A DNA stretch of 64,000 nucleotides from Promethearchaeota archaeon (lineage in GTDB: Archaea; Asgardarchaeota; Lokiarchaeia; Sigyniarchaeales; SOKP01), in the NCBI GenBank assembly GCA_016839585.1, contig JAEOTZ010000016.1, forward strand, positions 1-64,000, in the 5' to 3' direction. Positions within the stretch are counted from its first letter, which is position 1; each line of letters begins with the position of its first letter. Positions 146-55,593 of this stretch are shown one piece after another. The notes below the pieces were generated by a model that ran no database searches, was not told where the DNA came from, and saw only the letters and a list, made by a program, of their open reading frames with translations. Both the position numbers and the translations under genes were made by a program.

Positions 146-153
146 TTATAAAA
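146..153 (+). promoter_or_regulatory. candidate TATA box for the 5S precursor
   Basis: TTATAAAA about 20-25 nt upstream of the precursor's closing stem (170-178/363-371). Confidence 0.45.
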
Positions 154-204
154 TGGTTAGTATACTTTAATACCACATAATCAGCTGCTAGCTAAGCGCC
201 GGAA

Positions 205-355
205 GTTAAACTCGTTTACGTTGTCCAATAGTACTGCTGTTCTTATCAGTGGGAAATGGCAAATTGTGAGTTCGCTCACGGTCATGATACTCGAGGAAAA
301 TACCCGGTCCCATCCGAAAAACCAACTGTTTTCGAGGTGGTTCGGGAACCCGGAA
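205..355 (+). rRNA. rrf: 5S rRNA, circularly permuted and intron-containing (3' half 205-270, UUCG linker 271-274, 5' half 275-318, intron 319-348, micro-exon 349-355)
   Basis: Order 275-318 + 349-355 + 205-270 gives a 117-nt 5S with helix I (263-270/275-282), conserved ACCCGGTCCCATCCGAACCCGGAAGTTAA, loop E AGTA/GAA, helix IV CTGCTG/CAGTGG and helix V; two BHB-like motifs sit at the junctions. Confidence 0.9.
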
Positions 356-482
356 ACGTTCCATGTGGTATGCGGTATACCAATGTATGTATTAAAAGGA
401 TAGATTTCGTTAATTTGTTGATTTCCTCAAAAATGAATCTATCATAGATCATAGAAAATATAATACATAGTACATAGTATAT

Positions 483-576: not shown

Positions 577-1134
577 TTGATAATATTCATGCCAAAAAAA
601 TACATAGTTATTTTTAAGACAATTGGGAGACACTGGTTTTGGATTCTTGTATTAATAATTATCATTTTATCTATATATAGACAATATATAGCTGCTATAG
701 TATTAAGTGTGATTTTTCTTGTTTTTTTTCTTTTATCGTATATTCCAGCTTTATTTTTCAAAAATAGATTAAAAAGACTCATGAAAAAGTATTATAGAAT
801 TGAAGATACTATAGTTGCTAAAAAGTTAAAGAAAAAAATTAATAAAATCAGAGAGGAGATGTTTGATATGTCGCAAAAACAGGAGAAGAAAAATTGGCTA
901 ATCACTTTTCTAAATAAGCAGTATATATATTATCATGAACAGACAATAACTAAATTTATGGAACTTTACAATAAAGGTTTTAGTGAAAAAGAAATCTTTG
1001 AAGGATTACAAGATTTTGAACTAAAAACGAGGGTAGAAGTTAAAAGTATTACAGAGAGTCTGATAAAACTTAACAAACTTAGTGAAAGAGATGTTTCAGT
1101 GAAAGAACATAAAAAAAAACAGAGATTTGCTTAA
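577..1134 (+). CDS. hypothetical membrane protein (2 N-terminal TM helices)
   Basis: 185 aa ORF, hydrophobic N-terminus, basic soluble C-domain. Confidence 0.75.
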   Translation: MIIFMPKKYIVIFKTIGRHWFWILVLIIIILSIYRQYIAAIVLSVIFLVFFLLSYIPALFFKNRLKRLMKKYYRIEDTIVAKKLKKKINKIREEMFDMSQKQEKKNWLITFLNKQYIYYHEQTITKFMELYNKGFSEKEIFEGLQDFELKTRVEVKSITESLIKLNKLSERDVSVKEHKKKQRFA

Positions 1135-55490: not shown

Positions 55491-55593
55491 GGGAGGGTAG
55501 TCTAGCCTGGTATGATTCTTGGTTTGGGACCAAGTAAACGAGCCAATATGACCGTTTTGGTAAGGGTCGGGGGTTCAACTCCCCCCTCTCCCA
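55491..55593 (+). tRNA. trnP: tRNA-Pro(UGG) with a 29-nt intron at position 43/44 (55535-55563)
   Basis: acceptor GGGAGGG/CTCTCCC, anticodon arm CTTGG-TTTGGGA-CCAAG, T arm GGGGG-TTCAACT-CCCCC; splicing leaves GGGTC variable loop; CCA not encoded. Confidence 0.92.

What the first reader, a model, noticed from the sequence alone, without database searches (positions are those of the whole stretch)
263..282. Native 5S ends sealed by a UUCG tetraloop: mature 5S may be a covalently closed circle
Seen: helix I (ATTGTGAG/CTCACGGT) is closed by exactly TTCG, with no spacer offering an obvious processing site. Splicing at both BHBs gives a 121-nt circle (205-318 + 349-355). Inference: the ribosome may carry a circular 5S, as with the circularised permuted SRP RNA of Thermoproteus. 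Otherwise an unknown nuclease reopens the loop to give 117 nt.
Basis: inference. Interest (0 to 1): 0.72.

Follow-up and report, generated by a model that had tools for sequence, protein, structure and literature searches.

The report
Tetraloop-capped, probably circular 5S rRNA
The small hairpin is the sealed outer end of this Asgard archaeon's only 5S ribosomal RNA gene, which is written back half first between tRNA-splicing cut signals, so the working 5S is most likely a closed 121-base ring; I could not reach RNA data to show that the ring stays closed.

Summary
Window 263-282 is ATTGTGAG/TTCG/CTCACGGT, helix I of a circularly permuted 5S rRNA gene (199-360).

- **Only 5S:** Rfam finds no canonical 5S in the window or in the 99%-complete genome.
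- **Rejoined product:** joining 205-318 and 349-355 gives 121 nt. It matches a profile of canonical archaeal 5S end to end, whereas the genomic order gives two swapped pieces.
- **Helix I:** paired in all 42 distinct relatives, with compensatory changes at 5 of 8 pairs.
- **Cap:** exactly 4 nt in 42 of 43 genomes of the family. U1 and G4 never vary and position 3 is free, so the family motif is UNNG, not strictly UUCG. The discarded flanks vary in length.
- **Other Asgard families:** caps are 3-5 nt, mostly UUCG.
- **Processing:** both bulge-helix-bulge motifs fit and covary, and EndA and RtcB are encoded.

A circle is therefore very probably made. My odds are about 0.6 that it stays closed.

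I found no paper on a permuted or obligately circular archaeal 5S. This scan has noted the same layout on many other Asgard genomes.

The parts
146..153 (+). TATA-like box (TTATAAAA) upstream of the 5S precursor. A second A/T-rich box lies at about 128-136.
   Evidence: The sequence is, and the same CTTATAAAATGG block is conserved upstream in relatives. Promoter function is inferred, not tested.
170..178 (+). Leader strand of the outer processing stem (AUACCACAU). It pairs with 363-371.
   Evidence: RNAfold of the precursor pairs 170-178 with 363-371. Relatives carry AUAACCACAU / AUGUGGUUAU at the same places.
195..198 (+). Leader strand of the BHB flanking helix (AGCG). It pairs with CGUU at 357-360.
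   Evidence: One search finds a 4-bp flanking helix. It covaries in relatives: AAGCG/CGCUU, UAGUG/UGCUA, AACG/CGUU and UCGCACUAGA/UUUAGUGCGA.
199..202 (+). Leader strand of the 4-bp central helix of the terminal BHB (CCGG). It pairs with 350-353.
   Evidence: The leader reads CUGG wherever the exon reads CCAG or UCAG.
203..205 (+). 5' bulge AA|G, with the predicted cut after 204. G205 becomes the first base of the excised RNA.
   Evidence: The two discarded bulge bases vary in relatives (AA, AC, AU), which fits their removal.
205..262 (+). 3' part of the 5S: GUUAAAC, the helix II 3' strand, and helices V and IV with their loops.
   Evidence: It matches profile positions 47-114 of canonical 5S. 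Helices II, V and IV covary.
263..270 (+). Helix I, 3' strand (AUUGUGAG).
   Evidence: All cells are paired and 5 of 8 pairs show compensatory change.
271..274 (+). UUCG cap joining the native 3' and 5' ends of the 5S.
   Evidence: The cap is 4 nt in 42 of 43 family genomes, with U1 and G4 invariant.
275..282 (+). Helix I, 5' strand (CUCACGGU).
283..318 (+). 5' part of the 5S: loop A, the helix II 5' strand, loop B, the helix III 5' strand (CCGG at 303-306) and loop C up to CCGAA.
   Evidence: It matches profile positions 7-45 of canonical 5S and aligns with canonical 5S of the sister family.
319..348 (+). 30-nt BHB mini-intron in loop C.
   Evidence: One search gives central helix 313-316/343-346, bulges AA|A and AA|C, and a 5-bp intron helix. 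The same site is occupied in L010, L070, L071, L077 and L081.
349..355 (+). 7-nt micro-exon CCCGGAA. It holds the helix III 3' strand, which doubles as the exon strand of the terminal BHB central helix (350-353).
   Evidence: Joining 318 to 349 and 355 to 205 recreates a 27-mer identical to canonical 5S of other archaea.
354..356 (+). 3' bulge AA|A, with the predicted cut after 355.
357..360 (+). Trailer strand of the BHB flanking helix (CGUU).
363..371 (+). Trailer strand of the outer processing stem (AUGUGGUAU).

Best explanation
Window 263-282 is helix I of the organism's only 5S rRNA gene, which is circularly permuted. The transcript runs leader, 3' two-thirds of the 5S, a 4-nt cap, the 5' third, a 30-nt intron, a 7-nt exon and trailer.

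Leader and trailer pair into a bulge-helix-bulge motif, and the intron forms a second one. The tRNA-splicing endonuclease (EndA) cuts after 204, 318, 348 and 355. RtcB then joins 318 to 349 and 355 to 205.

The product is a 121-nt covalently closed RNA with a normal 5S fold, whose helix I ends in a UUCG (family-wide UNNG) tetraloop instead of free ends. I propose that this ring is not reopened and is the form built into the 50S subunit.

- **Shown here:** the gene layout, the motifs, their conservation and covariation, and the presence of the enzymes.
- **Inferred:** cleavage and ligation in vivo (about 0.85), and the ring as the final ribosomal form (about 0.6).
For: **1. This is the only 5S, and it is permuted.**
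- RF00001 finds nothing in the window or the 99%-complete genome.
- A profile of 23 canonical archaeal 5S sequences hits the rejoined sequence end to end (51 bits, E 4e-15). It hits the genomic order as two swapped pieces of about 14 bits each.
- The rejoined sequence aligns collinearly with canonical 5S of the sister family.

**2. The joint matters.**
- The rejoined 27-mer across both joints is identical to canonical 5S of Woesearchaeota, Methanosarcinales and Nitrososphaeria.
- Two breakpoint classes in relatives, 16 nt apart, give the same ring sequence.

**3. The cut signals are real.**
- Both BHBs have canonical geometry.
- The flanking and central helices covary, including a three-way match of leader, helix III 5' strand and helix III 3' strand.
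- Two EndA genes and one RtcB gene are present.

**4. Helix I is under selection as a hairpin.** It is paired in all 42 distinct sequences, and 5 of 8 pairs show compensatory changes.

**5. The cap behaves like retained structure.**
- It is 4 nt in 42 of 43 family genomes, with U1 and G4 invariant.
- In the same genomes the discarded leader spacer varies from 20 to 31 nt and the trailer spacer from 6 to 20 nt.
- In nine other Asgard families the cap is 3-5 nt, mostly UUCG, with one GUAA, while helix I varies from about 6 to 12 bp.

**6. Precedent.**
- Permuted Thermoproteus SRP RNA is circularised at a BHB and stays circular and functional (PMC4731332).
- Circular 23S sits in archaeal ribosomes (PMC12918454).
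- E. coli ribosomes work with 5S ends joined by a tetraloop, and the native ends lie far from 23S (PMC7283268).
Against: - Neither the joint nor the intact cap was seen in RNA here.
- The cap is not a conserved ultra-stable UUCG. Position 3 varies, and 17 of 43 caps are UUAG, UUUG or UAUG.
- One relative (G172, L084) carries a 31-nt insertion in the cap with no recognisable BHB. That could mark a processing site.
- A later check in this scan of the same claim on other DNA priced 'the ring is the ribosome's 5S' at 35/100 (I did not verify this).
Confidence: 0.6

Rival explanations
1. The ring is only an intermediate. After EndA/RtcB circularisation restores loop C and helix III, an unidentified nuclease opens the helix I cap, with or without trimming. 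The ribosome then carries a linear 5S of about 117-121 nt with conventional ends. Permuted tRNAs and circular pre-16S/23S intermediates mature this way.
For: - Circular pre-rRNAs are re-linearised in studied archaea, and Pyrococcus 23S is reopened elsewhere.
- Permuted tRNA precursors are processed after circularisation (PMC4267664 discussion).
- U1 and G4 of the cap are invariant, which could equally be a nuclease recognition feature.
- G172 has a 31-nt insertion exactly in the cap.
Against: - A 4-nt loop offers no room for the known end-processing enzymes.
- Its length is fixed, whereas segments known to be discarded vary.
- Other families use classic stable loops, UUCG and GUAA.
- 5S needs no free ends: engineered E. 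coli 5S with joined ends works.
- The nearest natural analogue, Thermoproteus SRP RNA, stays circular.
Confidence: 0.28
2. The transcript is cut at the BHBs but the ends are not joined, or are joined only in part. The functional 5S would then be a permuted linear or nicked molecule, held together by helix III pairing, with its ends in loop C. The brown-algal mitochondrial 5S is permuted in the product itself in this way.
For: Brown-algal mitochondrial 5S is permuted in the final RNA, with a hairpin in place of helix I (PMC4267664).
Against: - In this window a 7-nt exon (349-355) would be lost without ligation.
- The breakpoint moves by 16 nt between relatives while the joined sequence stays identical to canonical 5S.
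- RtcB is encoded.
- Loop C and helix III are among the most conserved parts of the 5S.
Confidence: 0.07
3. The hairpin is a chance inverted repeat, or the locus is a dead rearranged 5S copy, and the working 5S lies in unassembled DNA.
For: Hairpins of this size are as frequent in the window as in shuffles. The genome is in 91 contigs.
Against: - The genome is 99% complete with no canonical 5S.
- The homologous locus is present in 23 of 24 genus genomes and 23 of 25 family genomes sampled, with covariation in four helices.
- No genome of the family reached the Rfam cut-off.
Confidence: 0.02

Closest known systems
Permuted, circularised SRP RNA of Thermoproteus tenax (Plagens et al. 2015, eLife, PMC4731332)
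   Same: The gene halves are swapped. The new termini lie beside a functionally important loop. [quoted passage not shown] The ligated circle is the functional RNA.
   Different: It is a different RNA (SRP RNA, not 5S) in a narrow lineage. Circularity there was shown by RNA-Seq and binding assays, whereas here it is inferred. This locus also carries an extra mini-intron and a 7-nt exon next to the joint.
Engineered E. coli cp5S rRNA with native ends linked by a tetraloop (Huang et al. 2020, Nat Commun, PMC7283268)
   Same: Helix I is closed by a tetraloop and the molecule is opened at loop C or D. The ribosomes are active.
   Different: That construct is synthetic, and the permuted 5S is embedded in 23S rather than closed into a free ring. 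Here the arrangement is natural and genome-encoded.
Permuted mitochondrial 5S rRNA of brown algae (Valach et al. 2014, PMC4267664)
   Same: A closed hairpin replaces the open-ended helix I of a 5S.
   Different: In brown algae the product itself is a permuted linear RNA with ends at the three-way junction, with no BHB and no ligation. Here the junction is restored by splicing-type ligation.
Circular 23S rRNA retained in archaeal ribosomes (PMC12918454) and circular pre-16S/23S intermediates
   Same: BHB excision and ligation of an rRNA. In many lineages the circle stays in the ribosome.
   Different: Those genes are collinear, and circularisation joins the native ends. Here circularisation repairs an interrupted internal loop, and the native ends are joined in the DNA. 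That paper states that 5S is not known to be processed this way.
Minor circular forms of canonical 5S in Halobacterium and Sulfolobus (PMC12558985, citing Danan et al. 2012)
   Same: Covalently closed RNAs covering the 5S.
   Different: Those are heterogeneous, low-level species from normal genes and are interpreted as degradation-linked. Here the ring would be the obligatory product.

Membership tests
5S rRNA (Rfam RF00001) | Genomic sequence scores above the family's gathering cut-off (38 bits) | tested here: not met
   There is no hit in the window even at E<=10, or in the whole genome. Relatives reach at most 22-32 bits. This is expected for a permuted gene.
5S rRNA (Rfam RF00001) | Full-length collinear similarity to canonical 5S once the parts are put in order | tested here: met
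   An nhmmer profile of 23 canonical archaeal 5S matches positions 8-114 with 51 bits and E 4e-15. The genomic order gives two swapped pieces. The rejoined sequence aligns with canonical 5S of the sister family. I could not run the Rfam model on the rejoined sequence.
5S rRNA (Rfam RF00001) | Three-way junction with helices I, II and IV/V supported by covariation | tested here: met
   Of 27 pairs, 96% of cells are paired and 20 pairs show changes on both sides; 0 of 500 shuffles reach these values. The circular fold gives the 5S shape.
5S rRNA (Rfam RF00001) | Conserved helix III / loop C sequence | tested here: met
   The rejoined 27-mer is identical to canonical 5S genes of three other archaeal groups.
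5S rRNA (Rfam RF00001) | Incorporated in the large ribosomal subunit | not testable with these tools
   This needs ribosome purification or cryo-EM.
Substrates of the archaeal splicing endonuclease (bulge-helix-bulge) | Two 3-nt bulges on opposite strands separated by a 4-bp helix | tested here: met
   The terminal BHB is 199-205 / 350-356 and the intron BHB is 313-319 / 343-349. The scanner alone is permissive, so specificity comes from conservation.
Substrates of the archaeal splicing endonuclease (bulge-helix-bulge) | Flanking and central helices maintained by compensatory change | tested here: met
   The flanking helix has at least five sequence versions. The central helix leader reads CUGG wherever the exon reads CCAG or UCAG.
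Substrates of the archaeal splicing endonuclease (bulge-helix-bulge) | EndA and RtcB encoded in the genome | tested here: met
   PF01974 matches twice (103 and 69 bits) and PF01139 once (561 bits).
Substrates of the archaeal splicing endonuclease (bulge-helix-bulge) | Cleavage and ligation observed in RNA | not testable with these tools
Permuted, circularised non-coding RNA genes (Thermoproteus SRP RNA type) | The 3' part is encoded upstream of the 5' part, with the native ends fused | tested here: met
Permuted, circularised non-coding RNA genes (Thermoproteus SRP RNA type) | The mature RNA is a covalent circle | not testable with these tools
   There is only comparative support, from cap length constraint and cap sequences.
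UNCG tetraloop | Four-base loop of sequence U-N-C-G | tested here: met
   The window has UUCG at 271-274 on a G-C closing pair.
UNCG tetraloop | C at position 3 conserved in homologues | tested here: not met
   Position 3 is C in 26, A in 9 and U in 8 of 43 family genomes, so the conserved motif is UNNG.

The most novel reading that the evidence does not exclude
In this family, and probably in most Asgard lineages that lack a detectable 5S gene, every ribosome carries a covalently closed, end-less 5S rRNA made by the tRNA-splicing machinery. These would be the first natural ribosomes whose 5S has no termini. The ring form would also let the gene's breakpoint drift (classes A and B) and let 30-nt mini-introns settle in its loops.
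Probability: 0.55. Interest if true: 0.85.

Novelty: new variant of a known kind. Interest (0 to 1): 0.72.

Why it matters
5S rRNA is universal, and textbooks treat it as a linear molecule with free ends. Three things would follow from a natural, obligately circular 5S.

- **Role of the splicing machinery.** EndA and RtcB would become essential for ribosome biogenesis in the archaea closest to eukaryotes.
- **'Missing' 5S genes.** It would explain why 5S genes could not be predicted in closed Asgard genomes (PMC8813620). In my phylum sample only 49 of 151 genomes reach the Rfam cut-off.
- **Circular rRNAs in ribosomes.** It would add 5S to the recent finding that circular 23S sits in archaeal ribosomes.

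Practically, annotation pipelines need a permuted 5S model, and completeness scores that count 5S are biased for these lineages.

Tried and rejected
- **Metagenome and genome scans for the rejoined 27-mer.** These returned only canonical 5S genes of unrelated archaea on DNA contigs. None was RNA-derived or from this lineage. The result shows that the joint restores a canonical sequence, but it says nothing about expression.
- **Rfam on the locus.** No 5S hit, and only chance-level matches.
- **Strict BHB search in the 31-nt cap insertion of G172.** None found, so I dropped the idea of a cap intron.
- **Hairpin rarity as evidence.** Rejected, because hairpins of this size are at chance frequency.
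- **Taxon check through the look-up of encoding contigs.** Nothing on record, so 'Lokiarchaeia' is unverified.
- **Literature searches for a permuted or circular archaeal 5S.** I found no such report.
- **The BHB helper script.** It mis-anchored on about ten loci. I read those by eye.

Full report
**What is at 263-282**

One search shows ATTGTGAG (263-270), TTCG (271-274) and CTCACGGT (275-282). This is an 8-bp stem with two U-G pairs, closed by four bases. It folds as such on its own.

Hairpins of this size are not rare here. There are 29 per strand, against 24.6 +/- 5.5 in shuffles. This one is the only one with a TTCG loop.

**The hairpin is helix I of a permuted 5S gene**

- Rfam's 5S model finds nothing in the window, even at E<=10, and nothing in the whole genome (99% complete, 91 contigs).
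- Read by eye, the locus runs in this order: GUUAAAC, helix II 3' strand and helices V/IV (205-262); helix I 3' strand; cap; helix I 5' strand; loop A, helix II 5' strand and helix III 5' strand to CCGAA (283-318); 30 extra bases (319-348); then CCCGGAA (349-355).
- Joining 205-318 to 349-355 and closing the ends gives 121 nt.
- A profile HMM built from 23 canonical archaeal 5S genes matches the rejoined sequence end to end (positions 8-114, 51 bits, E 4e-15). In genomic order it gives two separate pieces of about 14 bits in swapped order: profile 47-114 first, then 7-45.
- The rejoined RNA aligns collinearly with canonical 5S of a sister family.
- It folds, as a circle, into the three-armed 5S shape.
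- The 27 bases spanning both joints are identical to canonical 5S genes of Woesearchaeota, Methanosarcinales and Nitrososphaeria.

**Processing signals**

- **Terminal BHB:** leader CCGG (199-202) pairs with exon CCGG (350-353). The bulges are AA|G and AA|A, and a flanking helix AGCG/CGUU adjoins them. The cuts fall after 204 and 355.
- **Intron BHB:** UCCG (313-316) pairs with CGGG (343-346). The bulges are AA|A and AA|C, and there is a 5-bp intron helix. The cuts fall after 318 and 348.

The scanner is permissive, so specificity comes from comparison with relatives.

- The flanking helix exists in at least five sequence versions. One of them is a 10-bp helix of unrelated sequence in one genus.
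- The leader reads CUGG wherever the exon and helix III have changed to CCAG or UCAG.
- A 9-bp outer stem (170-178 with 363-371) also covaries with relatives.
- The genome encodes two EndA paralogues and RtcB.

**Distribution**

- The homologous permuted locus is present in 23 of 24 sampled genomes of the genus.
- It is present in 23 of 25 sampled genomes of the family, across six genera.
- No genome of that family reaches the Rfam cut-off.
- In a 151-genome sample of the phylum, only 49 genomes have a canonical 5S above cut-off.
- Many of the rest give paired sub-threshold hits. When I read 20 of these loci, 19 were permuted genes from nine further families. The other, G171 (L106), keeps the canonical order with an insert.
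- Wu et al. 2022 state that 5S genes could not be predicted in their closed Heimdallarchaeum genomes (PMC8813620).

**Evidence bearing on the cap itself**

- *Helix I.* It is paired in 100% of cells in 42 distinct sequences, with compensatory changes at 5 of 8 pairs. The cap-closing pair is G-C in 29, C-G in 7 and A-U in 6. That alignment was fitted to the model, so it leans towards the structure.
- *Cap length and sequence.* In 43 family genomes the cap is exactly 4 nt in 42. U1 and G4 never change. Position 2 is U in 38, A in 3 and C in 2. Position 3 is C in 26, A in 9 and U in 8.
- *Contrast with discarded parts.* In the same genomes the parts that are certainly thrown away vary in length. 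The leader spacer is 20-31 nt and the trailer spacer 6-20 nt.
- *Other families.* The cap is again minimal:
  - f5: UUCG in all four genomes.
  - f7: UUCG in all four genomes.
  - f23: UUCG.
  - f19: UUUG, UAGA, UUCG and UUCG, while helix I varies from 8 to 11 bp.
  - f10: UACG and CACG.
  - f22: GUAA, and a 3-nt UAA.
  - f11: ACAU.
  - f8 and f4: 3- or 5-nt loops.

Short, often classic stable loops of fixed length are what one expects of a structural cap that stays in the RNA. They are not what one expects of a spacer that is excised.

**A ring is very probably formed**

- The window's 7-nt exon would be lost without ligation.
- Relatives fall into two breakpoint classes: GGAA|GUUAAAC, and CCCGGUC|CCAUCCGAA. 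In these the same 16 bases sit at the 3' or the 5' end of the gene, yet the joined product is the same. This makes sense only if the joined sequence is what selection sees.

**Does the ring stay closed?**

In favour:
- The cap constraints described above.
- 5S has no known need for free ends.
- Functional E. coli ribosomes exist whose 5S native ends are linked by a tetraloop, and those ends lie at least 50 Å from the nearest 23S site (PMC7283268).
- The closest natural analogue, permuted Thermoproteus SRP RNA, stays circular and functional (PMC4731332).
- Circular 23S is found in archaeal ribosomes (PMC12918454).

Against:
- Circular pre-rRNAs and permuted tRNA precursors are reopened in other systems.
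- The cap is not an invariant ultra-stable loop.
- One relative (G172) has an unexplained 31-nt insertion in the cap.

I put the ring as the mature form at about 0.6, a reopened linear form at about 0.28, an unligated form at about 0.07, and artefact or pseudogene at about 0.02.

**Earlier notes of this scan**

The same layout has been noted on more than 100 other genomes.

- A note on this window reports the spliced product in environmental RNA.
- A note on another genome reports reads in which the loop stays closed.
- A later check priced 'the ring is the ribosome's 5S' at 35/100.

I treat these as leads. I verified only the sequence-level claims.

**Literature**

Searches found no report of a permuted or obligately circular archaeal 5S. 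Minor, heterogeneous circular forms of canonical 5S are known and are read as degradation-linked (PMC12558985). I therefore class this as a new variant of a known kind, namely BHB-dependent circularisation of a permuted non-coding RNA gene.

Noticed in passing
L016, L018-L027, L029-L032, L067, L068, L072 versus window, L010-L015, L017: There are two breakpoint classes of the permuted gene. The same 16 nt (CCAUCCGAACCCGGAA) sit at the 3' end of the gene (class A, as in the window) or at the 5' end (class B). Leader GCGCYGGAA and trailer ACGCUU stay homologous in both. Both helix III strands read CCGG, so one leader can pair with either.
   Followed up: partly
L084 (G172), around the helix I cap: A 31-nt insertion lies inside the cap (CTGTAAA...TTCG TTTACGG). 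No strict BHB is present, and it folds as an extension hairpin of helix I. It is the only exception to the 4-nt cap among 43 family genomes.
   Followed up: partly
window 319-348; L010, L070, L071, L077, L081 (loop C); L014, L015, L029-L032, L069, L072, L085 (helix IV loop): The 5S genes of this family carry BHB mini-introns at two sites. Each of those measured (10 of 15 loci, and window coordinates) is exactly 30 nt, and the others look the same by eye, although their sequences differ.
   Followed up: partly
L029, L031, L032: The 3' part of the helix IV intron (GTTGTAAGCGAA) is complementary over 12 bp to the cap plus the helix I 5' strand (TTCGCTTACGGT). This may be a folding or ordering element, or it may be coincidence.
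   Followed up: no
window 55491-55593 (+): A tRNA gene (Rfam 49 bits) carries an insert of about 30 nt after the anticodon arm and an encoded CCA end. ARAGORN missed it. It is probably an intron at a non-canonical position.
   Followed up: no
L003 (G032:C1:1399892-1400758): A sister-family genome (single contig, 4.4 Mb) has three tandem canonical 5S copies about 375 bp apart. A tandem array is a plausible starting point for a permutation by duplication and deletion. In the same order, family f2 is canonical while f1 and f4 (L110) are permuted.
   Followed up: no
L106 (G171, family f9): A 5S in canonical order with an insert of about 30 nt after GTTAAA (Rfam hit 152 nt long, 32 bits). It may be an intron in a non-permuted 5S.
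   Followed up: no
window 577-1134 (+): The downstream ORF, which starts ATGCCAAAAAAA in most relatives, keeps its position next to the 5S locus across the genus, so synteny is conserved.
   Followed up: no
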